In this document: in pieces, positions 1 to 12,686 of the stretch
Layout: each line of letters begins with the position of its first letter
How positions within the stretch are numbered: position 1 is the first letter of the stretch
Assembly (NCBI RefSeq): GCF_053078305.1
Contig: NZ_CP166879.1
DNA: 64,000 nt
Reading direction: 5' to 3' (one strand)
Notes under the pieces: model-generated
What the model saw: only the letters and a program-made list of their open reading frames with translations
What the model was told of the DNA's origin: nothing
The model's database searches: none
Program-made: the position numbers and the translations under genes

Positions 1-379
1 AACACCGGCTGTCGGTTTTGCGATGGGCCTCGAACGTCTTGTATTGTTAGTACAGGCCGTTAATCCGGAATTTAAAGCCGATCCTGTTGTCGATATATAC
101 CTGGTGGCTTCAGGTGCTGATACACAATCTGCGGCTATGGCATTAGCTGAGCGTCTGCGTGATGAATTACCGGGCGTGAAATTGATGACCAACCACGGCG
201 GCGGCAACTTTAAGAAACAGTTTGCCCGTGCTGATAAATGGGGTGCCCGCGTTGCTGTGGTGCTGGGTGAGTCTGAAGTGGCTAACGGCACAGCAGTAGT
301 GAAGGATTTGCGCTCTGGTGAGCAAACGGCAGTTGCGCAGGATAGCGTAGCCGCGCATTTGCGCACGTTACTGGGTTAA
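1..379 (+). CDS. hisS: histidine--tRNA ligase, C-terminal part (5' end outside window)
   Basis: Track ORF 23..379 in a frame open from position 2; encodes the HisRS anticodon-binding C-terminus (...[33 protein letters not shown]...); followed by yfgM-bamB-der as in E. coli. Confidence 0.9.
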
Positions 380-396
380 GGAAGGAGAAGGACAGC

Positions 397-1017
397 GTGG
401 AAATTTACGAGAACGAAAACGACCAGGTAGAAGCGGTTAAACGCTTTTTTGCTGAAAATGGCAAAGCACTGGCTGTTGGGGTGATTTTGGGCGTTGGCGC
501 ACTGATTGGCTGGCGCTACTGGAACAGCCATCAGGTTGATTCTGCACGCTCCGCTTCTCTTGCCTATCAAAATGCGGTTACCGCAGTGAGCGAAGGCAAA
601 CCGGATAGCATCCCGGCGGCGGAAAAATTTGCTGCTGAAAATAAAAATACTTATGGTGCGCTGGCTTCTTTGGAACTTGCGCAGCAATTTGTTGACAAAA
701 ATGAACTAGAGAAAGCTGCCGCCCAGTTACAACAGGGGCTGGCAGACACGAGCGATGAAAATCTCAAAGCCGTGATAAATCTGCGTCTTGCTCGCGTTCA
801 GGTACAGCTCAAGCAGGCTGATGCCGCGCTGAAAACCCTTGATACCATCAAAGGTGAAGGGTGGGCTGCCATTGTTGCCGACCTGCGTGGTGAAGCATTG
901 CTGAGCAAAGGTGATAAGCAAGGTGCGCGTAGTGCATGGGAAGCAGGCGTGAAAAGCGATGTTACTCCGGCACTGAGCGAAATGATGCAGATGAAAATTA
1001 ATAATTTGTCCATCTGA
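397..1017 (+). CDS. yfgM: YfgM, inner-membrane ancillary SecYEG translocon subunit (TPR-like)
   Basis: 206 aa ORF with GTG start at 397, N-terminal TM helix, sequence recognised as YfgM; GGAG RBS upstream. Confidence 0.92.
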   Translation: MEIYENENDQVEAVKRFFAENGKALAVGVILGVGALIGWRYWNSHQVDSARSASLAYQNAVTAVSEGKPDSIPAAEKFAAENKNTYGALASLELAQQFVDKNELEKAAAQLQQGLADTSDENLKAVINLRLARVQVQLKQADAALKTLDTIKGEGWAAIVADLRGEALLSKGDKQGARSAWEAGVKSDVTPALSEMMQMKINNLSI

Positions 1018-1027
1018 GAGGGACCCG

Positions 1028-2206
1028 ATGCAATTGCGTAAATTACTGCTGCCAGGACTGCTTTCCGTTACCCTTTTAAGCGGCTGTTCGCTGTTTAACA
1101 GCGAAGAAGATGTGGTAAAGATGTCCCCATTGCCAACCGTTGAAAACCAGTTTACGCCGACCACGGCGTGGAGCACTTCCGTTGGTAGCGGCATTGGCAA
1201 CTTCTATTCCAATCTTCATCCGGCACTGGCGGACAACGTTGTCTATGCAGCGGACCGCGCTGGTTTAGTAAAAGCGCTGAATGCGGATGATGGCAAAGAA
1301 ATCTGGTCTGTCAGCCTGGCCGAGAAAGATGGCTGGTTCTCTAAAGAGCCTGCATTACTTTCTGGCGGTGTGACCGTGTCTGGTGGGCATGTCTACATTG
1401 GCAGCGAAAAGGCGCAGGTTTACGCGCTGAATACCAGCGATGGTACTGTGGCATGGCAAACTAAAGTCGCGGGTGAAGCACTTTCGCGCCCGGTGGTCAG
1501 CGACGGTCTGGTGTTAATCCACACCAGTAACGGTCAGTTACAAGCGCTGAACGAAGCTGACGGCGCTGTCAAATGGACAGTTAACCTCGATATGCCTTCG
1601 CTCTCTTTGCGTGGCGAGTCTGCGCCGGCAACGGCTTTTGGTGCGGCCGTCGTGGGTGGCGATAATGGTCGCGTCAGCGCAGTGCTGATGGAACAGGGCC
1701 AGATGATTTGGCAGCAGCGTATTTCCCAGGCGACCGGTTCTACCGAAATTGACCGTCTGAGCGATGTTGACACGACTCCCGTCGTTGTTAACGGCGTTGT
1801 TTTCGCGCTGGCCTATAATGGTAACCTGACGGCGCTTGATCTGCGCAGTGGTCAGATTATGTGGAAACGCGAACTGGGTTCGGTGAATGATTTCATCGTC
1901 GACGGCAATCGCATCTATCTGGTCGATCAAAATGACCGGGTGATGGCGTTGACCATTGATGGCGGCGTTACGCTGTGGACACAAAGCGATCTGCTGCATC
2001 GCCTGCTGACTTCTCCGGTGCTGTATAATGGCAACCTGGTGGTCGGTGACAGTGAAGGTTATCTGCACTGGATTAACGTCGAAGATGGTCGTTTCGTTGC
2101 CCAGCAAAAAGTTGATAGTTCCGGTTTCCAGACTGAACCGGTTGCCGCTGACGGCAAACTGCTGATCCAGGCAAAAGACGGAACCGTGTACTCTATTACA
2201 CGTTAA
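1028..2206 (+). CDS. bamB: BamB, outer-membrane protein assembly lipoprotein (PQQ beta-propeller)
   Basis: 392 aa ORF, lipobox LLSGCSLF, sequence recognised as BamB/YfgL. Confidence 0.95.
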   Translation: MQLRKLLLPGLLSVTLLSGCSLFNSEEDVVKMSPLPTVENQFTPTTAWSTSVGSGIGNFYSNLHPALADNVVYAADRAGLVKALNADDGKEIWSVSLAEKDGWFSKEPALLSGGVTVSGGHVYIGSEKAQVYALNTSDGTVAWQTKVAGEALSRPVVSDGLVLIHTSNGQLQALNEADGAVKWTVNLDMPSLSLRGESAPATAFGAAVVGGDNGRVSAVLMEQGQMIWQQRISQATGSTEIDRLSDVDTTPVVVNGVVFALAYNGNLTALDLRSGQIMWKRELGSVNDFIVDGNRIYLVDQNDRVMALTIDGGVTLWTQSDLLHRLLTSPVLYNGNLVVGDSEGYLHWINVEDGRFVAQQKVDSSGFQTEPVAADGKLLIQAKDGTVYSITR

Positions 2207-2227
2207 TCGTCTCTGTCGTTCACTTTG

Positions 2228-2264
2228 AAAACGGCTCCTGGACAGGGGCCGTTTTCCTGTTTTT
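2228..2264 (+). terminator. hairpin plus T-run after bamB (possible partial terminator/attenuator before der)
   Basis: aaacggc...ggccgtttt stem followed by cctgttttt. Confidence 0.4.
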
Positions 2265-2323
2265 AACAACGACGCGAATATAGCGTGCGTTGTCTGATGA
2301 TTTATAAAAATGAGGCTTTAAAC

Positions 2324-3796
2324 ATGGTACCTGTGGTCGCGCTTGTCGGGCGCCCTAACGTAGGAAAATCCACGTTATTTAACCGTCTAACTCGCACCCG
2401 AGATGCGCTGGTTGCGGATTTCCCGGGTCTGACTCGTGACCGTAAGTACGGTCGTGCGGAAATTGAAGGCCGTGAGTTTATCTGTATTGATACCGGCGGG
2501 ATTGATGGCACAGAAGACGGTGTAGAAACCCGCATGGCGGAACAGTCGCTGCTGGCGATTGAAGAAGCGGACGTCGTACTGTTTATGGTGGATGCGCGCG
2601 CGGGCCTGATGCCGGCAGATGAAGCGATTGCCAAACATCTGCGCTCCCGTGAAAAACCGACCTTCCTGGTGGCAAACAAAACTGACGGTCTGGATCCCGA
2701 TCAGGCAGTGGTTGATTTCTACTCGCTTGGTTTAGGTGAAATCTACCCGATCGCCGCGTCTCACGGTCGTGGCGTATTAAGTCTGCTGGAGCATGTGCTA
2801 CTGCCGTGGATGGAAGATCTCGCACCGCAAGAGGAAGTCGACGAAGACGCTGAATACTGGGCGCAATTTGAAGCGGAAGAGAACGGCGAAGAAGAAGAGG
2901 AAGACGACTTCGACCCGCAAAGTCTGCCGATCAAACTGGCGATTGTGGGTCGTCCGAACGTAGGTAAGTCTACACTCACTAACCGTATTCTTGGTGAAGA
3001 GCGCGTTGTTGTTTATGACATGCCTGGTACGACGCGTGACAGTATCTACATTCCAATGGAACGCGATGGACGTGAGTATGTGCTCATTGACACCGCTGGC
3101 GTACGTAAACGCGGCAAAATCACCGATGCTGTAGAGAAATTCTCCGTAATCAAAACGTTGCAGGCCATTGAAGACGCCAACGTGGTGATGTTAGTGATTG
3201 ATGCGCGCGAAGGTATTTCCGATCAGGATCTCTCGCTGCTGGGCTTTATTCTCAATAGTGGGCGCTCACTTGTCATTGTGGTGAATAAGTGGGATGGCCT
3301 GAGTCAGGAAGTGAAAGAGCAGGTGAAAGAAACGCTGGACTTCCGTCTGGGCTTTATCGATTTTGCTCGTGTGCACTTTATCTCTGCCTTGCACGGCAGT
3401 GGTGTTGGTAACTTGTTTGAATCAGTACGTGAAGCGTATGACAGCTCCACCCGTCGTGTGGGGACCTCTATGCTGACGCGCATCATGACGATGGCTGTTG
3501 AAGATCACCAACCGCCGCTGGTACGCGGTCGTCGTGTGAAGCTGAAATATGCACACGCCGGTGGTTATAATCCGCCGATTGTGGTGATTCACGGTAATCA
3601 GGTGAAAGACCTGCCTGATTCCTACAAGCGTTACTTGATGAACTACTTCCGCAAATCGCTGGACGTAATGGGATCGCCGATTCGTATTCAGTTCAAAGAA
3701 GGGGAAAACCCGTATGCGAACAAGCGTAACACCCTGACGCCAACCCAGATGCGTAAACGTAAGCGTCTGATGAAGCACATCAAGAAAAATAAATAA
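2324..3796 (+). CDS. der: Der/EngA, ribosome-associated double GTPase
   Basis: Two P-loops (GRPNVGKS twice), KH-like C-terminus; true ATG at 2324 (track ORF begins at an upstream in-frame codon, 2285). Confidence 0.95.
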
Positions 3797-3864
3797 TTAT
3801 CCGTAAGTATTTTATCTGCCATTCCCTCTATGAATGTAGAGGGGTGGCTACCGGAGGAATTCAT

Positions 3865-5519: not shown

Positions 5520-5570
5520 TTTTTTGCAAAAAGGGGTAGATGCAATCGGTTACGCTCTGTATAATGCCGC
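5520..5570 (+). promoter_or_regulatory. guaBA promoter region with candidate PurR-box-like element
   Basis: TATAAT at 5560..5565 about 44 bp upstream of the guaB ATG; weak -35; atgcaatcggttacgc (5540..5555) matches the 16-bp pur-box palindrome at about 11/16. Confidence 0.45.
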
Positions 5571-5608
5571 GGCAATATTTATTAACCACTCTGGTCGAGA
5601 TATTGCCC

Positions 5609-7075
5609 ATGCTACGTATCGCTAAAGAAGCTCTGACGTTTGACGACGTTCTCCTCGTTCCTGCTCATTCTACTGTTCTGCCGAATACTGCTGACCTCAG
5701 CACCCAGCTGACGAAAACTATTCGTCTGAATATCCCTATGCTTTCCGCAGCAATGGATACCGTAACGGAAGCGCGCCTGGCTATTGCTCTGGCTCAGGAA
5801 GGCGGTATCGGCTTTATCCACAAAAACATGTCCATTGAACGCCAGGCAGAAGAAGTTCGCCGTGTGAAAAAACACGAATCTGGCGTGGTGACTGATCCGC
5901 AGACTGTTCTGCCAACCACGACGCTGCGCGAAGTGAAAGAACTGACCGAGCGTAACGGTTTTGCGGGCTATCCGGTCGTTACCGAAGAAAACGAACTGGT
6001 GGGTATTATCACCGGTCGTGACGTGCGTTTTGTTACCGACCTGAACCAGCCGGTTAGCGTTTACATGACGCCGAAAGAGCGTCTGGTCACCGTGCGTGAA
6101 GGTGAAGCCCGTGAAGTGGTGCTGGCAAAAATGCACGAAAAACGCGTTGAAAAAGCGCTGGTGGTTGATGACGAATTCCACCTGATCGGCATGATCACCG
6201 TGAAAGATTTCCAGAAAGCGGAACGTAAACCGAACGCCTGTAAAGACGAGCAAGGCCGTCTGCGTGTTGGTGCTGCAGTTGGCGCAGGTGCGGGTAACGA
6301 AGAGCGTGTTGACGCGCTGGTTGCCGCTGGCGTTGACGTTCTGCTGATCGACTCCTCCCACGGTCACTCAGAAGGCGTTTTGCAGCGTATCCGTGAAACC
6401 CGTGCTAAATATCCGGATCTGCAAATCATCGGCGGCAACGTGGCAACAGCTGCAGGTGCACGCGCTCTGGCAGAAGCTGGTTGCAGCGCGGTTAAAGTCG
6501 GTATCGGCCCTGGTTCTATCTGTACGACTCGTATCGTTACTGGCGTAGGTGTTCCGCAGATCACTGCCGTTGCTGACGCAGTTGAAGCCCTGGAAGGCAC
6601 CGGTATTCCGGTTATCGCAGATGGTGGTATTCGCTTCTCCGGCGACATCGCCAAAGCTATCGCCGCTGGCGCAAGCGCGGTGATGGTAGGTTCCATGCTG
6701 GCGGGTACTGAAGAATCTCCGGGTGAAATCGAACTCTACCAGGGCCGTTCTTACAAATCTTACCGTGGTATGGGTTCCCTGGGCGCGATGTCCAAAGGTT
6801 CCTCTGACCGTTATTTCCAGAGCGATAACGCTGCCGACAAACTGGTGCCGGAAGGTATCGAAGGTCGCGTAGCTTATAAAGGTCGCCTGAAAGAGATCAT
6901 TCACCAGCAGATGGGCGGCCTGCGCTCCTGTATGGGTTTGACCGGCTGTGGTACTATCGACGAACTGCGTACTAAAGCGGAGTTTGTACGTATCAGCGGT
7001 GCGGGCATTCAGGAAAGCCACGTTCACGACGTGACCATTACTAAAGAGTCCCCGAACTACCGTCTGGGCTCCTGA
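5609..7075 (+). CDS. guaB: IMP dehydrogenase
   Basis: 488 aa from ATG 5609 ([21 protein letters not shown]...), CBS and catalytic GSICTT motif; track ORF is N-extended to 5540. Confidence 0.96.
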
Positions 7076-7143: not shown

Positions 7144-8721
7144 ATGACGGAAAACATTCATAAGCATCGCATCCTCATTCTGGACTTCGGTTCTCAGTAC
7201 ACTCAACTGGTTGCGCGCCGCGTGCGTGAGCTGGGTGTTTACTGCGAACTGTGGGCGTGGGATGTGACAGAAGCACAAATTCGTGACTTCAATCCAAGCG
7301 GCATTATTCTTTCCGGCGGCCCGGAAAGTACTACTGAAGAAAACAGTCCGCGTGCGCCGCAGTATGTCTTTGAAGCAGGCGTACCGGTATTCGGCGTTTG
7401 CTATGGCATGCAGACCATGGCAATGCAGTTGGGCGGTCACGTTGAAGCCTCTAACGAACGTGAATTTGGCTACGCGCAGGTTGAAGTCGTAAACGACAGC
7501 GCACTGGTTCGCGGTATCGAAGATGCGCTGACCGCAGACGGTAAACCGCTGCTCGATGTCTGGATGAGCCACGGCGATAAAGTTACCGCTATCCCGTCCG
7601 ACTTCGTCACCGTAGCCAGCACCGAAAGCTGCCCGTTTGCCATTATGGCTAACGAAGAAAAACGCTTCTATGGCGTACAGTTCCACCCGGAAGTGACTCA
7701 CACCCGCCAGGGTATGCGCATGCTGGAGCGTTTTGTGCGTGATATCTGCCAGTGTGAAGCCCTGTGGACGCCAGCGAAAATTATCGACGATGCTGTAGCT
7801 CGCATCCGCGAGCAGGTAGGCGACGATAAAGTCATCCTCGGCCTCTCTGGTGGTGTGGATTCCTCCGTAACCGCAATGCTGCTGCACCGCGCTATCGGTA
7901 AAAACCTGACTTGCGTATTCGTCGACAACGGCCTGCTGCGTCTCAACGAAGCAGAGCAGGTTCTGGATATGTTTGGCGATCACTTTGGTCTTAACATTGT
8001 TCACGTACCGGCAGAAGATCGCTTCCTGTCAGCGCTGGCTGGCGAAAACGATCCGGAAGCAAAACGTAAAATCATCGGTCGCGTTTTCGTTGAAGTATTC
8101 GATGAAGAAGCGCTGAAACTGGAAGACGTGAAGTGGCTGGCACAGGGCACCATCTACCCTGACGTTATCGAATCTGCGGCGTCTGCAACCGGTAAAGCAC
8201 ACGTCATCAAATCTCACCACAACGTGGGCGGCCTGCCGAAAGAGATGAAGATGGGCCTGGTTGAACCGCTGAAAGAGCTGTTCAAAGACGAAGTGCGTAA
8301 GATTGGTCTGGAGCTGGGTCTACCGTACGACATGCTGTACCGTCACCCGTTCCCGGGACCAGGCCTTGGCGTTCGTGTTCTGGGTGAAGTGAAGAAAGAG
8401 TACTGTGACCTGCTGCGCCGTGCTGACGCCATCTTCATTGAAGAACTGCGTAAAGCGGATCTGTACGACAAAGTCAGCCAGGCGTTCACCGTCTTCCTGC
8501 CAGTACGTTCCGTTGGCGTAATGGGCGATGGTCGTAAGTATGACTGGGTTGTCTCTCTGCGTGCTGTCGAAACCATCGACTTTATGACCGCACACTGGGC
8601 GCATCTGCCGTACGATTTCCTCGGTCGCGTTTCCAACCGCATTATCAATGAAGTGAACGGTATTTCCCGCGTGGTGTATGACATCAGCGGCAAGCCGCCA
8701 GCTACCATTGAGTGGGAGTGA
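7144..8721 (+). CDS. guaA: GMP synthase (glutamine-hydrolysing)
   Basis: 525 aa, class-I GATase N-terminus, [10 protein letters not shown]-loop. Confidence 0.96.
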
Positions 8722-8761
8722 GGCTATTATTTAAACTATTGTTTTATTTGATTTAGTGAGT

Positions 8762-8800
8762 GCCATTGATGATATTGACTGCATTATCAATGGCATTTTT
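8762..8800 (+). terminator. AT-rich hairpin plus T-run downstream of guaA
   Basis: gccattgat (8762..8770) pairs with atcaatggc (8786..8794), followed by attttt. Confidence 0.4.
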
Positions 8801-9105
8801 CATGGTATAAGGCCGACGCTGAATCGAAGATATAGCAAATACCATGTGACTGTATCAGCAAATGCCATGGTATCGACAACCGGGGGCATTGCAGCGCTGT
8901 GCTGATGCCATCGATGCCCGCTTTTAGTCAGAACACTCTCTCGACCCAAGCCTCCAGATCCTTAAATATGCGCCAGAGGAGCACCTCGTGATCGAAATTA
9001 TGAACAAGACAGCCGCCGCTCGGAATCGAAGTCTCCATATGGGTGAATAAGGTTTGCGGAAAACACGCTGAGAAAATAGAAAAGCGTCAATGAAGGGACA
9101 TAGCA

Positions 9106-10386
9106 ATGGCGATTAACGGAGTGGACGGTGTTAGCGCAGTCACCGTGGATGAACTACTCAAGCAAGGCCTTCGGATACCGAACTATCAACGCCCATACAG
9201 TTGGGAAGTATCGACCGCTCTACAACTGGTGGATGATCTCAGCGAAGCTCTTCGAGATACCGAAAGAAAAGATATTCCCTATGTTTTGGGTGCAATCATT
9301 CTTCACGATGATGGTGAGTATCTCAATGTAGTCGACGGACAGCAACGTCTGCTGACTTTGCGAATGATTCTTGCGGCCTTAGATCCGATAAATCACCAAA
9401 TTTCGGTGTCTGGTAACAGAGAAACCTCTGTCTCCCTGGTTTGGATAGAGCTTCAAAGGCGCCTGTCGCAGTTGGAAGATAAAAAAGAATTTTTGGATTT
9501 TATCTGTCACAAATGTCAGTTGGTGCGTATTGTGACGGACGATATTGATGAGGCATTCCGTGTCTTTGATTCCCAGAACTATCGCGGCAAACCGCTTGCC
9601 CCTCATGACTTGCTCAAAGCACACCACCTGCGCGAAATGCACGATGAGTCCGCTGCTATGAAAGTGGCTGTCGTTGAGGCTTGGGAAGCCGTAAATGATG
9701 AGGATCTGGACAGGCTTTTTTCTACTTTTTTATACCGGATATCCAAGTGGTCACGAGGAGAAAGCTCGCTCGAATTTGCTATTCGGGACATCGGTATGTT
9801 CAAGGGAATTTCATCACGATCCCACAGATCATTTTCGCCAAATCTGCGATATCACCTTGCAGCACAAGCCGCTATGCCACTTCTAAGTGCATGGGCGGTG
9901 TCCTCGACACATGATGCTCGAAATGCCGGGCGCAGCCGCTTTCAGCTTGATGCCCCGATAATCGCTGGGCGCTCATTTTTCGAGATGGTGGCATTCATGC
10001 TTGACGAATTGAAGATACTGGAAAAAGAGGTTATCGACAAAGGTTTCAAAAACTTTGGCCCATCTCAAAGTCGCTACCGCTACGTGTACGAATTGTTCAT
10101 TGCCGCTCTGCTTTGCTATACAAACAAGTTTGGCGATGAAGATGTGGATGAAGTGCGAAATAGGTTATTCGCATGGGCATATGCCTTGCGGGTCGAGTTA
10201 CTTCGTGTGCAATTTGTATCTGCTGACAACCGAGCTCGAGGTAAAAACGATGCAAATAAATCGCCTTTTGTTTTGCTACGCAACGCGATGACTGGAAGTG
10301 TTGTCCGCAAACTTCCAATAGCAAGTCAGCCATACAACGATAACCACGAAAAGGAACTCATTGCTTTTATCAAGGGGCTGCAATGA
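9106..10386 (+). CDS. DUF262 (ParB/Srx-like NTPase, GmrS-like) protein; accessory gene A
   Basis: 426 aa; IPNYQRPYSW motif and DGQQR (nt 9334..9348); later FRVFDSQNYRGKPL motif; no HNH/His-Me motif seen in the C-terminal ~270 aa; ATG 9106 with GGGA RBS; stop overlaps the next start (ATGA at 10383..10386). Confidence 0.8.
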   Translation: MAINGVDGVSAVTVDELLKQGLRIPNYQRPYSWEVSTALQLVDDLSEALRDTERKDIPYVLGAIILHDDGEYLNVVDGQQRLLTLRMILAALDPINHQISVSGNRETSVSLVWIELQRRLSQLEDKKEFLDFICHKCQLVRIVTDDIDEAFRVFDSQNYRGKPLAPHDLLKAHHLREMHDESAAMKVAVVEAWEAVNDEDLDRLFSTFLYRISKWSRGESSLEFAIRDIGMFKGISSRSHRSFSPNLRYHLAAQAAMPLLSAWAVSSTHDARNAGRSRFQLDAPIIAGRSFFEMVAFMLDELKILEKEVIDKGFKNFGPSQSRYRYVYELFIAALLCYTNKFGDEDVDEVRNRLFAWAYALRVELLRVQFVSADNRARGKNDANKSPFVLLRNAMTGSVVRKLPIASQPYNDNHEKELIAFIKGLQ

Positions 10387-12335
10387 GCAAGAAGGAGTTG
10401 AAACCCGAACTGCTAACAGTAGGCAAGCTATTCACGGACAATTATCTGATTCCTATTTATCAACGGAACTATGCTTGGCGGGCCGAACAGATTGAGCAAC
10501 TTATCAGCGATATTCAAGACTCGGTTGTTGGGGGCCAGGACGACTATTTTCTTGGAAACCTTGTTGTAATCAAGCGGGGTAGAGAGGACGAGTTCGAGGT
10601 CATAGATGGACAACAACGACTTACAACCCTCTATCTGCTTCTGACCTTCCTGGAGCAAGACGGTGAGGGTGGGAAGCCGTCGATTGGCCATGCAGGCCAC
10701 TTGCAATATGAGTCGCGTGCACGGGCAACGGAAGCCCTGCGGCGAGTAGCACAGGAGGCGGCTAAGGGGCACGTCCGACCGCAGGGCTCCACGAGTAATG
10801 CAGATGCTGGCATCCATGAAGGCTACAGCATCATCAATCAGTTCTTCAAACAAAATGAAACCCTTAATTGCTCACGCGAAAAATTCTCCGATTTCTTGCT
10901 AACGAAGGTTACTGTCGTCCGTGCCTCGCTGCCACCCAATACAGATCTCAATCGCTACTTCGAGATCATGAACACTCGTGGGCAGCAACTCAAGCAGGTT
11001 GATATTGTTAAGGCTCGCCTGATGAGCAAGCTGCCCAATCAATATGAACGCGAATGCTTCGCCTGGGTTTGGGATGCCTGTGCTGAGATGGATTCTTATG
11101 TCCAGATGTCTCTGACCCGTGGTGACACCAGTTTGCGAAACAAAGTATTTGGCGATGAATGGTCCTGGCTGGAGGTGACCAGCTTCGCGTCGTTAATGGA
11201 AAGTCGTCCGCAATCCGGCATCAATTCTTCAAGGCAATCCTCCGAAGGGGTATCGTTGTCCTTGGATGAGGCGTTGTCAAAATACGCTAAAGAGATCGAG
11301 TCAAATTCCACTGAAGACGAGGGCAACGAGCGGTTTCGTTCGACTATTGAGTTTCCGGCCTTTCTGCTACACGTTCTAAGAATTATGAAAGGCGATGAGG
11401 TCGAAGACGAAGGCCAGCTTGACGACAAACGCCTCATCAAGTCATTTGACGACGCTGTAAATAATGTACCCGATGCTAAAGCCGATTGGGTGCGTAACTT
11501 TACATTCATGCTCCTCAAGTGCCGCAACCTCTTCGATGGCTTCATTTTGAAGCGTCAATTCACGGCGAACATCGGTGACGATGGCGATTGGTCTCTCCAG
11601 CGATTGAAGAAAGGCGGCGCGGACAAGAAGCCAACCCCGACGTATATCCATGTTTTCTCGGCCAGCAATGGAAACTTAGAGGAGGACGGCGGTGCTGACC
11701 CACATACCCGAGATGTATTGCTGCTTCAGTCCATGCTTCGGATAACCTACACTTCTCCGCGAACGATGCACTGGATTACCAAAGTTCTTCGCTGGCTATC
11801 CGTCAAAGCCCCTCAAGACGCGAAACATGCGGATCTTGCCGATTTGTTGAAGGGGTATGCCCGCAGCAAGGTCAAAGAGACATTCCCCTTTGAGGAAGAT
11901 CAGCAACCACAAGGGTTTGGTATCAGCCGCATCGTCTTTTCGTATCTCGACTATCTTCTGTTGAGCGATTCCTCAAAACGAGATTTCAAATTTCAGTTCA
12001 GAACTTCCATTGAGCACTTTTATCCACAGCATCCGGACAAAGAACAGTCGGGCGCGGTTGTTTCAGGTTCTAGCCTTAACCTGCTTGGCAACCTTGCGCT
12101 CGTAAGCGTCAGCGCGAACTCAAAATTCAGCAATAGCCTTCCCAGAGCGAAGGCCGAAAACTTCAAGGATACGATTGAACTTCAAAGTCCCAAGCTCAAG
12201 AGAATGGCGGAAATCACTCGAAATACAAGCTGGGACGATCAGCAGATAACAGCTCATCATGAAGAGATGGTGACATTGCTTCGTGATGATGTAAGTCTGG
12301 TGGAGGCAAGCGGAAGATCCTACCCGGGGCGTTGA
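10383..12335 (+). CDS. DUF262-DUF1524 protein (GmrSD/SspE/BrxU-family type IV restriction endonuclease-like); accessory gene B
   Basis: 650 aa; N-terminal IPIYQRNYAW plus DGQQR (10605..10619) plus FEIMNTRGQQL; C-terminal His-Me finger motifs SIEHFYPQHP (12009..12038) and NLLGNLALVSVSANSKFSN (about 12072..12128). Confidence 0.85.
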   Translation: MSKKELKPELLTVGKLFTDNYLIPIYQRNYAWRAEQIEQLISDIQDSVVGGQDDYFLGNLVVIKRGREDEFEVIDGQQRLTTLYLLLTFLEQDGEGGKPSIGHAGHLQYESRARATEALRRVAQEAAKGHVRPQGSTSNADAGIHEGYSIINQFFKQNETLNCSREKFSDFLLTKVTVVRASLPPNTDLNRYFEIMNTRGQQLKQVDIVKARLMSKLPNQYERECFAWVWDACAEMDSYVQMSLTRGDTSLRNKVFGDEWSWLEVTSFASLMESRPQSGINSSRQSSEGVSLSLDEALSKYAKEIESNSTEDEGNERFRSTIEFPAFLLHVLRIMKGDEVEDEGQLDDKRLIKSFDDAVNNVPDAKADWVRNFTFMLLKCRNLFDGFILKRQFTANIGDDGDWSLQRLKKGGADKKPTPTYIHVFSASNGNLEEDGGADPHTRDVLLLQSMLRITYTSPRTMHWITKVLRWLSVKAPQDAKHADLADLLKGYARSKVKETFPFEEDQQPQGFGISRIVFSYLDYLLLSDSSKRDFKFQFRTSIEHFYPQHPDKEQSGAVVSGSSLNLLGNLALVSVSANSKFSNSLPRAKAENFKDTIELQSPKLKRMAEITRNTSWDDQQITAHHEEMVTLLRDDVSLVEASGRSYPGR

Positions 12336-12553
12336 CTTCTTTGAATAACCGCTTTTGGACGAATGTCCCTTGTGGAGTGCAAGTTGTCAGTTTAAAAGTG
12401 TTTTGCGTCGGGCGACACGATCAGTACAGCTCCCAGGTTTTTTTACCATGGTATTTTGTGTGGTATCGACATGCAAAGATAATGCTATTTTGTTGATTTT
12501 ATAGTGTTTTAAGGCGGCATTGATCATCGAGTGGGAATAAACCCTGTACATAT

Positions 12554-12594
12554 TGCTGAAGTTTTCTTTTCGGATAAAACTTCAGCAGATTTTC
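12554..12594 (+). terminator. perfect 12-bp-stem hairpin downstream of the accessory operon
   Basis: tgctgaagtttt (12554..12565) is the exact reverse complement of aaaacttcagca (12576..12587), 10-nt loop, then GATTTTC; a T8 run follows at 12622..12629. Confidence 0.45.
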
Positions 12595-12686
12595 ACAGCA
12601 AACCCCTCTTATCTCTGGAGGTTTTTTTTACGCAAATTAAAAACCCATAACTCTCACGAATCATGGGCTTTGTGGTAGAAAGACGA

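What the first reader, a model, noticed from the sequence alone, without database searches (positions are those of the whole stretch)
10620..10958. GC-rich, Gly/Ala/Arg-rich segment inserted between the DGQQR and FEIMNTRG motifs of gene B
Between the two core DUF262 motifs gene B carries about 113 codons versus about 70 in gene A. The stretch around 10631..10813 (encoding ...GEGGKPSIGHAGHLQYESRARATEALRRVAQEAAKGHVRPQGSTSNADAGIHEGYS...) is visibly more GC-rich than the rest of the cassette. This may be a lineage-specific insertion or variable region, a common place for specificity determinants in GmrSD-like enzymes.
Basis: seen in the sequence. Interest (0 to 1): 0.35.

Follow-up and report, generated by a model that had tools for sequence, protein, structure and literature searches.

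The report
Ordinary GC-rich loop region in TgvB-like enzyme
The GC-rich stretch is real, but it is a normal, family-wide part of a known phage-defence nuclease (the TgvB-like subunit of a TgvAB type IV restriction system), and its GC excess comes mostly from Gly/Ala/Arg-rich surface loops rather than from an inserted foreign segment.

Summary
Observation confirmed. Window 10620-10958 encodes exactly the 113 residues (L80-Y192) between DGQQR and FEIMNTRG of gene B; gene A has 72. The core 10631-10813 is 61.7% GC against 48.7% for the rest of gene B.

Interpretation mostly not supported.
- The GC excess sits at codon positions 1 and 2. GC3 is not different, and the peptide alone predicts 57.5% GC.
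- The block is not lineage-specific. All full-length homologues have it (spacer median 103 aa).
- Validated V. cholerae TgvB has a 124-aa spacer and TgvA 68, so long-in-B and short-in-A is family-wide.
- The block has two fast-evolving, indel-prone, low-confidence loops (aa 92-106 and 129-141). They flank a conserved strand-helix (aa 107-128) whose Arg112 is invariant in every aligned homologue, TgvB included.
- Profile-profile alignment shows that this strand-helix is what A subunits lack.
- Close E. coli and Klebsiella alleles show no indels and no excess of substitutions there.

The cassette (genes A and B) is a TgvAB-type two-protein type IV restriction system that replaces the guaA-yfgI intergenic region. 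Its Klebsiella plasmid allele is already listed as a TgvAB homologue in the literature. This is an ordinary feature of low interest. The function of the Arg112 element is untested.

The parts
8722..12683 (.). 3962-bp segment carrying the two-gene cassette; it replaces the 92-bp guaA-yfgI intergenic region of E. coli K-12
   Evidence: Similarity to K-12 stops at the guaA stop codon (8721) and resumes at 12684. The segment is present in 81 of 5426 complete E. coli genomes. Gene B matches 456 plasmid records at about 96% identity, mostly Klebsiella, with both genes annotated there.
9106..10386 (+). Gene A: TgvA-like subunit (DUF262/GmrSD_N followed by DUF7834), 426 aa; short 72-aa spacer between DGQQR and FxxxN
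   Evidence: Pfam GmrSD_N 3.1e-28 and DUF7834 3.8e-55. 25% identity, E = 1e-27, collinear with V. cholerae TgvA residues 1-399. Homologue spacers are 69-77 aa. AF2 model pLDDT 86.
10383..12335 (+). Gene B: TgvB-like subunit (DUF262/GmrSD_N, helical linker, DUF1524/GmrSD_C His-Me nuclease), 650 aa; overlaps gene A by 4 nt (ATGA)
   Evidence: Pfam GmrSD_N 1.4e-33 and GmrSD_C 3.4e-14. 29% identity, E = 8e-37 to V. cholerae TgvB residues 1-399. AF2 pLDDT 88.6, pTM 0.83. Fold matches to DndI 9jfl, SspE and BrxU.
10605..10619 (+). DGQQR motif of gene B (aa 75-79), the NTP-binding/hydrolysis motif of DUF262
   Evidence: Invariant in 104 sequences. The motif's function is taken from the literature (PMC4619093, PMC11411939).
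10620..10958 (+). The finding: aa 80-192, the DUF262 insert region between the DGQQR motif and the FxxxN motif
10656..10700 (+). Variable loop 1 (aa 92-106, EQDGEGGKPSIGHAG region)
   Evidence: The 15-residue window aa 91-105 has conservation 0.10, and about 60% of family members have gaps at aa 95-100. pLDDT about 65 with no secondary structure. 0-33% identity in homologues that are 57-68% identical overall.
10701..10766 (+). Conserved strand (107-109) plus helix (113-128), L-x-[FY]-E-x-R; the element that A subunits lack
   Evidence: Conservation 0.52 for aa 106-120. 50-82% identity where the whole protein is 57-68%. pLDDT 84-91. hhalign of the A family against the B family leaves B residues about 107-125 unmatched.
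10716..10718 (+). Codon CGT = Arg112, invariant
   Evidence: Invariant in 133 sequences, in 104 sequences and in 9 published TgvAB-list members including V. cholerae TgvB.
10767..10805 (+). Variable loop 2 (aa 129-141, GHVRPQGSTSNAD)
   Evidence: The 15-residue window aa 121-135 has conservation 0.14, with 50-80% gaps at aa 129-135. pLDDT about 61. 8-46% identity in mid-distance homologues.
10806..10931 (+). Helices 142-175 and strand 176-183 that lead back into the ParB-like core
   Evidence: These align to gene A helices 108-136 and strand 137-144.
10959..10982 (+). FEIMNTRG (aa 193-200), the FxxxN motif of DUF262
   Evidence: F193, E194, N197, R199 and G200 are invariant.
12012..12017 (+). 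E544-H545 of the His-Me (HNH-type) nuclease motif in DUF1524
   Evidence: E544, H545, N570, N579 and N584 are invariant. The equivalent E/H residues are essential in HEC-06, and the catalytic His and an Asn are essential in TgvB.
10631..10813 (-). 60-codon antisense ORF with the same coordinates as the GC-rich core; judged spurious
   Evidence: Listed only mechanically. The sense frame is the conserved one. A stop-free antisense frame is expected in GC-rich sequence (inference).

Best explanation
The segment is the normal insert region of the DUF262 (ParB-like NTPase/sensor) domain of gene B. Gene B is the TgvB-like, nuclease-bearing subunit of a two-gene TgvAB-type type IV (modification-dependent) restriction cassette.

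The GC-rich core encodes three things: a fast-evolving, probably flexible surface loop (aa 92-106); a conserved beta-strand plus helix (aa 107-128) carrying a family-invariant arginine (R112); and a second fast-evolving loop (aa 129-141). It is GC-rich mainly because these pieces are rich in Gly, Ala, Arg and Pro, whose codons are GC-rich at positions 1 and 2. It was not acquired separately.

The extra length relative to gene A is an ancient, family-wide difference between B-type and A-type subunits. B subunits carry the strand-helix with R112; A subunits lack it.

Shown here: anatomy, conservation pattern, compositional cause and family assignment.

Inferred: the insert protrudes from the ParB-like core next to the clustered QR/DGQQR/FxxxN nucleotide pocket. 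R112 may contact nucleotide phosphate or DNA backbone, or couple NTP hydrolysis to the nuclease. The loops are tolerant surface spacers.
For: - GC figures: 0.617 against 0.487. GC1/GC2 are 0.74/0.50 against 0.56/0.38 for the whole gene. GC3 is 0.607 against 0.553 (Fisher p = 0.50). GC expected from the peptide with cassette codon usage is 0.575 +/- 0.022. Along the gene, observed GC and amino-acid-expected GC correlate at r = 0.90 and peak at the same codon.
- Elevated GC1+2 in the block recurs in homologues whose genes are 35%, 56% and 61% GC, while GC3 stays close to the gene's own level in two of the three and falls below it in the 61% GC gene.
- The block is present in all full-length homologues. 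The spacer is 108-113 aa (5th-95th percentile) in 120 close hits and has a median of 103 (5th-95th percentile 93-119) in 140 representatives at 36-60% identity.
- R112 is invariant. The loops are the least conserved windows of the protein.
- AF2 model: pLDDT 88.6, with loops of low confidence and the strand-helix of high confidence.
- hhalign of the A family against the B family (probability 99.8%) leaves B residues about 107-125 unmatched.
- Spacers are TgvB 124 and TgvA 68, against gene B 113 and gene A 72.
- Gene B and gene A are collinear with TgvB and TgvA (E = 8e-37 and 1e-27).
- The Klebsiella plasmid allele and Nocardioides QBR91857 (P0063) are in the published MacSyFinder TgvAB hit table (PMC11411939 Table S5).
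- The A+B gene pair is conserved in 4 of 4 distant loci examined.
- Five E. coli/Klebsiella alleles (95.6-99.3% nt identity) have no indels, and block substitutions are near expectation, for example 9 against 7.6.
Against: - A residual GC excess of about 0.04 over the peptide-based expectation remains (P = 0.036).
- No atomic coordinates were accessible. The position of R112 and of the loops relative to the nucleotide pocket, the nuclease domain or the A subunit is therefore unverified.
- The block cannot be aligned by sequence to the solved relatives DndI and SspE, so no experimental structure informs its role.
- The high variability of the loops is also what a specificity or anti-inhibitor surface would show.
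Confidence: 0.8

Rival explanations
1. Lineage-specific insertion or horizontally acquired mosaic piece: a GC-rich fragment was inserted into gene B in the enterobacterial lineage.
For: There is a local GC peak with z = 3.4. Gene B is 41 residues longer than gene A here. A small residual GC excess remains over the peptide expectation.
Against: The block is present and collinear in all homologues down to V. cholerae TgvB at 29% identity. GC3 is not different from the rest of the gene. Elevated GC1+2 is seen in every GC background tested. Substitutions among alleles are evenly spread and there are no indels. There are no flanking repeats and no second copy in the window.
Confidence: 0.03
2. Specificity or counter-defence surface: the two hypervariable loops (92-106 and 129-141) determine which DNA modification is recognised or help evade phage inhibitors (as IPI* acts on GmrSD), and they evolve under diversifying selection.
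For: The loops are the most variable and most indel-prone windows of the protein at family scale. They flank an invariant Arg. In BrxU an extended loop from the DUF262 domain reaches the nuclease domain (PMC8565348). DUF262 is regarded as the modification sensor.
Against: Within the E. coli/Klebsiella alleles the loops carry no excess of substitutions: 4 of 24 non-synonymous and 6 of 55 synonymous changes fall in aa 84-144. Other low-confidence linkers are about as variable (aa 271-285 scores 0.15). In SspE the sensor maps to the YQR patch. Low pLDDT with G/S/P/A-rich composition fits relaxed constraint just as well.
Confidence: 0.15
3. A nucleic-acid-level feature hidden in the coding sequence: a structured RNA element, an antisense gene (the 60-codon ORF at 10631-10813 on the minus strand), or a diversity-generating variable repeat.
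For: An antisense ORF coincides exactly with the GC-rich core.
Against: The RNA fold z-score is -0.93, and 30 of 200 shuffles fold at least as well. No template-like repeat of the block exists anywhere in the 64-kb window. Conservation follows the sense frame.
Confidence: 0.02

Closest known systems
TgvAB (VC1767/VC1766) of Vibrio cholerae VPI-2, a two-protein GmrSD-like type IV restriction system (PMC11411939; PMC11014532)
   Same: Two co-oriented, overlapping genes. A carries DUF262 only plus a helical C-terminal part; B carries DUF262 and a DUF1524 His-Me nuclease. QR, DGQQR and FxxxN motifs are present in both. The DGQQR-FxxxN spacer is long in B and short in A (124/68 against 113/72). The L-x-[FY]-x-x-R element is in B. 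Similarity is collinear. The near-identical Klebsiella plasmid allele is in the authors' TgvAB hit table.
   Different: Identity to the V. cholerae proteins is only 25-29%. Here the cassette is not embedded in a type I R-M operon; it sits between guaA and yfgI. The phage range and the modification targeted are untested for this clade.
Single-chain GmrSD enzymes (Eco94GmrSD, EcoCT GmrSD) and BrxU (PDB 7P9K)
   Same: DUF262, helical linker and DUF1524 architecture, with DGQQR and His-Me motifs. A poorly conserved insert after the DGQQR helix was already noted for GmrS: conserved regions are 8-98 and 181-278, and residues 97-134 were modelled as a 'long insertion' (PMC4619093).
   Different: These enzymes act alone, without an A-type partner. 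BrxU is only a weak fold match (E = 8e-4). The insert sequences cannot be aligned.
SspE (PDB 6JIV/7DRS) and DndI (PDB 9JFL), phosphorothioate-sensing DUF262-DUF1524 nucleases
   Same: These are the best fold and sequence matches among solved structures. The NTPase sensor is coupled to the nuclease.
   Different: They sense phosphorothioate on self DNA. Their DGQQR-FxxxN spacers are much longer, roughly 135 aa in DndI and 225 aa in SspE, read off the alignment positions. The block cannot be aligned to them.
HEC-06 (PADLOC), an Hma-embedded GmrSD-like defence protein
   Same: These are the top PADLOC profile hits for both genes (1e-28 and 2.2e-37). DGQQR and E-H nuclease residues are essential in HEC-06.
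   Different: HEC-06 works as a single protein of about 560 aa. The matches here cover mainly the N-terminal ~90 residues.

Membership tests
TgvAB two-protein type IV restriction system | Adjacent, co-oriented, overlapping gene pair: A with DUF262 only, B with DUF262 + DUF1524 | tested here: met
   Genes at 9106-10386 and 10383-12335 overlap by 4 nt. Pfam domains are as expected. The same pair occurs in L006, L009, L010 and L011.
TgvAB two-protein type IV restriction system | Sequence homology of both subunits to V. cholerae TgvA and TgvB | tested here: met
   Gene B against TgvB(1-399): 29% identity, E = 8e-37. Gene A against TgvA(1-399): 25% identity, E = 1e-27. Only the first 399 residues of each reference were available from Table S5. 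The 96%-identical Klebsiella allele is a MacSyFinder TgvAB hit in that table.
TgvAB two-protein type IV restriction system | QR, DGQQR and FxxxN motifs in both subunits; H...N...N His-Me motif in B | tested here: met
   B: Y26-Q27-R28, D75-R79, F193...N197, E544-H545, N570, N579, N584, all invariant. A: Y27-Q28-R29, D77-R81, F154...N158, invariant.
TgvAB two-protein type IV restriction system | Both proteins required for defence against phages with glucosylated 5hmC DNA | not testable with these tools
   This needs plaque assays; it is known only for the V. cholerae system.
TgvAB two-protein type IV restriction system | Embedded in a type I R-M operon (origin of the name, but not required: stand-alone tgvAB pairs were 17 times more common) | tested here: not met
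   Here the cassette lies between guaA and yfgI. A homologue in L006 does sit next to hsdR. The authors report 1744 stand-alone pairs against 102 embedded ones.
GmrSD family (Pfam GmrSD_N/DUF262 + GmrSD_C/DUF1524) | Both Pfam domains above their gathering thresholds in one polypeptide, with a ParB-like N domain and a His-Me C domain | tested here: met
   117.1 bits (cut-off 33.2) and 53.4 bits (cut-off 23). Fold hits to SspE, DndI and BrxU, and weaker ones to ParB and Noc.
   Present in all homologues. GC3 is not different.

The most novel reading that the evidence does not exclude
The B-subunit-specific strand-helix with invariant Arg112, framed by two hypervariable loops, may be the functional asymmetry of TgvAB. 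It could act, for example, as an arginine that completes the nucleotide or DNA-modification site, possibly across the A-B interface. The loops could then tune phage range or inhibitor evasion. This would help explain why TgvB needs TgvA, a question the TgvAB papers leave open.
Probability: 0.15. Interest if true: 0.45.

Novelty: already known. Interest (0 to 1): 0.12.

Why it matters
It matters little for discovery. The cassette belongs to a published defence family, and the GC-rich block is a compositional by-product of its loops.

Two modest uses remain. First, it is a worked example that a local GC peak inside a gene can be explained by amino-acid composition (GC1+2 against GC3) and need not signal foreign DNA. 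Second, it points experimenters on TgvAB to a concrete B-only element (L-x-[FY]-E-x-R, R112 here) and to two indel-tolerant loops. These are candidates for mutagenesis aimed at understanding why two DUF262 subunits are needed.

Tried and rejected
- Foreign-origin or mosaic insertion: rejected. GC3 is not different, GC1+2 is elevated in all GC backgrounds, substitutions are evenly distributed, and alleles have no indels.
- Lineage-specific insertion: rejected from homologue alignments and spacer statistics.
- RNA structure in the GC-rich block: z = -0.93.
- DGR-like variable region or repeat: a blastn search of the block against the whole window (word size 7) found only the block itself plus chance matches.
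- Antisense ORF at 10631-10813: mechanical listing only, with no support.
- Mapping the block onto solved structures by sequence: the family profile aligns to DndI and SspE only outside positions about 100-153, so no experimental structural inference was possible.
- Reading 3D contacts of R112 from the AF2 model: the tools return only pLDDT and secondary structure, not coordinates, so this could not be done.
- Which helix of B is 'extra' relative to A: BLAST put the gap at B 81-118. I prefer the more reliable profile-profile alignment, which puts the main gap at B residues about 107-125.
Full report
**Context.** The window is E. coli chromosome. guaB (5540-7075) and guaA (7144-8721) are followed by two overlapping plus-strand genes, gene A (9106-10386, 426 aa) and gene B (10383-12335, 650 aa). 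After them come yfgI-, yfgH-, yfgG- and pdeF-like genes. Compared with K-12, similarity stops exactly at the guaA stop codon (8721) and resumes at 12684. A 3962-bp segment therefore replaces the 92-bp guaA-yfgI intergenic region of K-12. The segment occurs in 81 of 5426 complete E. coli genomes. Gene B also matches 456 plasmid records at about 96% identity, mostly conjugative Klebsiella plasmids, with both genes annotated there.

**Checking the observation.**
- Window 10620-10958 is exactly codons 80-192 of gene B. These are the 113 residues between DGQQR (aa 75-79) and FEIMNTRG (aa 193-200). Gene A has 72 residues between its DGQQR and its FxxxN motif.
- The core 10631-10813 is 61.7% GC. The rest of gene B is 48.7% and the whole window 51.9%.
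- The core holds the GC maximum of the cassette (z = 3.4; top 1.1% of 183-nt windows).
- Residues 84-144 are 13% Gly and 15% Ala, against 5% each elsewhere. Arg is only slightly enriched at 8.2% against 6.3%.

**Why the block is GC-rich.**
- The excess lies at codon positions 1 and 2: 0.74 and 0.50, against 0.56 and 0.38 for the gene.
- GC3 is 0.607 against 0.553, which is not significant (Fisher p = 0.50).
- Re-encoding the same peptide with the cassette's own codon usage gives 0.575 +/- 0.022. About two thirds of the excess is therefore dictated by the amino-acid sequence. A small residual remains (P = 0.036).
- Along the gene, amino-acid-expected GC and observed GC correlate at r = 0.90 and peak at the same codon.
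- Homologous blocks in genes of 35%, 56% and 61% GC also show raised GC1+2. Their GC3 stays close to the gene's own level in two cases and is lower than the gene's in the 61% GC gene.
- This is a protein-composition effect, not a sign of separate origin.

**Is it an insertion or a variable region?**
- A search of 5.8 billion proteins gave 5480 hits. The best 120 are nearly all 630-660 aa long, at 57-100% identity, from Kluyvera, Klebsiella, Janthinobacterium, Acidovorax, Nocardioides and others. All of those aligned contain the block.
- An exhaustive HMMER scan of 1.84 billion cluster representatives found 976 at E <= 1e-30.
- In 140 representatives with both motifs, the spacer has a median of 103 aa and a 5th-95th percentile range of 93-119. 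Gene B's 113 is ordinary.
- Conservation along the protein shows a mosaic:
  - aa 91-105 score 0.10, and aa 95-100 are gapped in about 60% of members;
  - aa 121-135 score 0.14, and aa 129-135 are gapped in 50-80% of members;
  - these two are the least conserved 15-residue windows of the whole protein;
  - aa 106-120 (HLQYESRARATEALR) score 0.52, above the protein mean of 0.44;
  - L107 and L119 are each conserved at 84%, and R112 is invariant in 133 and in 104 sequences.
- In homologues that are 57-68% identical overall, the loops retain 0-46% identity. The strand-helix at 107-128 retains 50-82%.
- Five E. coli/Klebsiella alleles (95.6-99.3% nt identity) have no indels. They show no excess of changes in the block, for example 9 observed against 7.6 expected, with 4 of 24 non-synonymous and 6 of 55 synonymous changes in aa 84-144. 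The block stays at 60-62% GC in all of them.

**Structure.**
- The AlphaFold2 model of gene B was built from a 104-sequence alignment and is confident (pLDDT 88.6, pTM 0.83).
- Its elements in this region are:
  - helix 77-91, which follows DGQQR;
  - loop 92-106 (pLDDT about 65);
  - strand 107-109;
  - helix 113-128 (pLDDT 84-91);
  - loop 129-141 (pLDDT about 61);
  - helices 142-175;
  - strand 176-183;
  - helix 189-198, which carries FEIMN.
- Foldseek finds DndI (9jfl), SspE and BrxU, and more weakly ParB and Noc.
- From my own knowledge of ParB Box II and Box III, strand 176-183 plus the FEIMN helix look like the element that directly follows the GERR helix in ParB. If so, aa 92-175 are an insert relative to the minimal ParB/Srx fold. 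This is inference.
- Machnicka et al. already described such a poorly conserved 'long insertion' after the DGQQR helix in GmrS (PMC4619093).
- The gene A model (pLDDT 86) has only a loop and two helices between the corresponding core elements.
- Profile-profile alignment of the A and B families (probability 99.8%) pairs A helix 108-121 with B helix 142-157. It leaves B residues about 107-125, plus parts of both loops, without a counterpart.
- The extra length of B is therefore real, and it is the conserved strand-helix with R112.

**What the cassette is.**
- Pfam gives GmrSD_N + DUF7834 for gene A and GmrSD_N + GmrSD_C for gene B. PADLOC's best profiles are HEC-06, Orf5 and SspE.
- The architecture matches TgvAB of V. 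cholerae VPI-2. That is a two-protein GmrSD-like type IV restriction system in which both proteins are needed for defence against T-even phages with glucosylated 5hmC (PMC11014532, PMC11411939).
- Table S5 of PMC11411939 holds the authors' MacSyFinder hits. It contains 56 entries starting with the Klebsiella plasmid allele of gene B, and also Nocardioides QBR91857, which is my P0063 at 60% identity.
- Using the first 399 residues of TgvB and TgvA printed there, gene B aligns collinearly at 29% identity (E = 8e-37) and gene A at 25% (E = 1e-27).
- The spacers are 124 aa in TgvB and 68 in TgvA. Gene A homologues have 69-77.
- In an alignment of nine members of the published list, the only invariant residue inside the insert is the arginine equivalent to R112. 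In V. cholerae TgvB it sits in RLQFSIREQ.
- The pairing of an A gene (GmrSD_N + DUF7834) immediately upstream of a B gene holds in all four distant loci examined, at 68%, 60%, 42% and 36% identity. One of them lies next to hsdR.

**How it most likely works.**
- By homology with GmrSD, BrxU, SspE and TgvAB, the DUF262 domain binds and hydrolyses NTP through the clustered QR, DGQQR and FxxxN motifs. It couples detection of modified DNA to the C-terminal His-Me nuclease.
- The block studied here is the insert that loops out between two of those motifs.
- I infer that the conserved strand-helix with R112 is a functional element of the B subunit. It might contact phosphate or DNA, or couple to the nuclease or to the partner subunit.
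- I infer that the two Gly/Ala/Ser/Pro-rich loops are flexible, tolerant surface segments.
- In SspE, the only relative in which the sensor was mapped, the sensing residues are Y30 and Q31 of the YQR motif and not the insert. This argues against the 'specificity determinant' reading but does not exclude it.

**Rivals rejected.** These were a lineage-specific or foreign insertion, an RNA structure (z = -0.93), a DGR-like repeat, and the antisense ORF that coincides with the core.

**Verdict.** The feature is an ordinary, family-wide part of an already described defence system. The one point worth passing on is the B-only L-x-[FY]-E-x-R element with its invariant arginine.

Noticed in passing
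window 8722-12683: The cassette does not simply insert into the guaA-yfgI spacer. It replaces the entire 92-bp K-12 intergenic region, from the guaA stop codon to 3 nt before the yfgI stop. It brings its own terminator-like hairpins, such as TGCCATTGATGAT...ATTATCAATGGCATTTTT at about 8763-8800 and CCCCTCTTATCTCTGGAGGTTTTTTTT at about 12603-12629.
   Followed up: partly
window 8722-12686 vs E. coli genomes: There are three allele groups at about 99%, 97.7% and 95.7% identity. Many genomes match only query positions 1-3817 (window 8722-12538), so the last ~150 bp before yfgI differ between lineages, giving an alternative right junction. Three genomes (H23-H25) carry an IS3-family ISSen4 insertion inside the segment.
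   Followed up: no
L004 (Klebsiella quasivariicola plasmid pKPN1705-1), 4724-7953: The same two genes sit on IncFIB conjugative plasmids, between IS1/IS3 elements and umuDC and near parB. Gene B matches 456 plasmid records in all, 452 of them Klebsiella. The cassette is therefore spread mainly by plasmids and is only occasionally chromosomal in E. coli.
   Followed up: partly
L007 1929-4577; L010 2607-3994: Decay of the A subunit occurs in some relatives. In L007 the A gene is split by a Transposase_mut insertion. In L010 it is called as two ORFs (388 + 89 aa). The B gene is intact in both.
   Followed up: no
It is most likely a stop-free by-product of the GC-rich sense codons.
   Followed up: partly
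gene A, window 9106-10386 (aa 186-414): The C-terminal two thirds of the A subunit match Pfam DUF7834 (3.8e-55) and are predicted to be all-helical. No paper in the searched library mentions DUF7834. The TgvAB papers describe TgvA as 'DUF262 only'.
   Followed up: partly
P0118 (730 aa homologue of gene B): One homologue carries an N-terminal SAP domain (PF02037) fused in front of the TgvB-like protein, an extra putative DNA-binding module.
   Followed up: no
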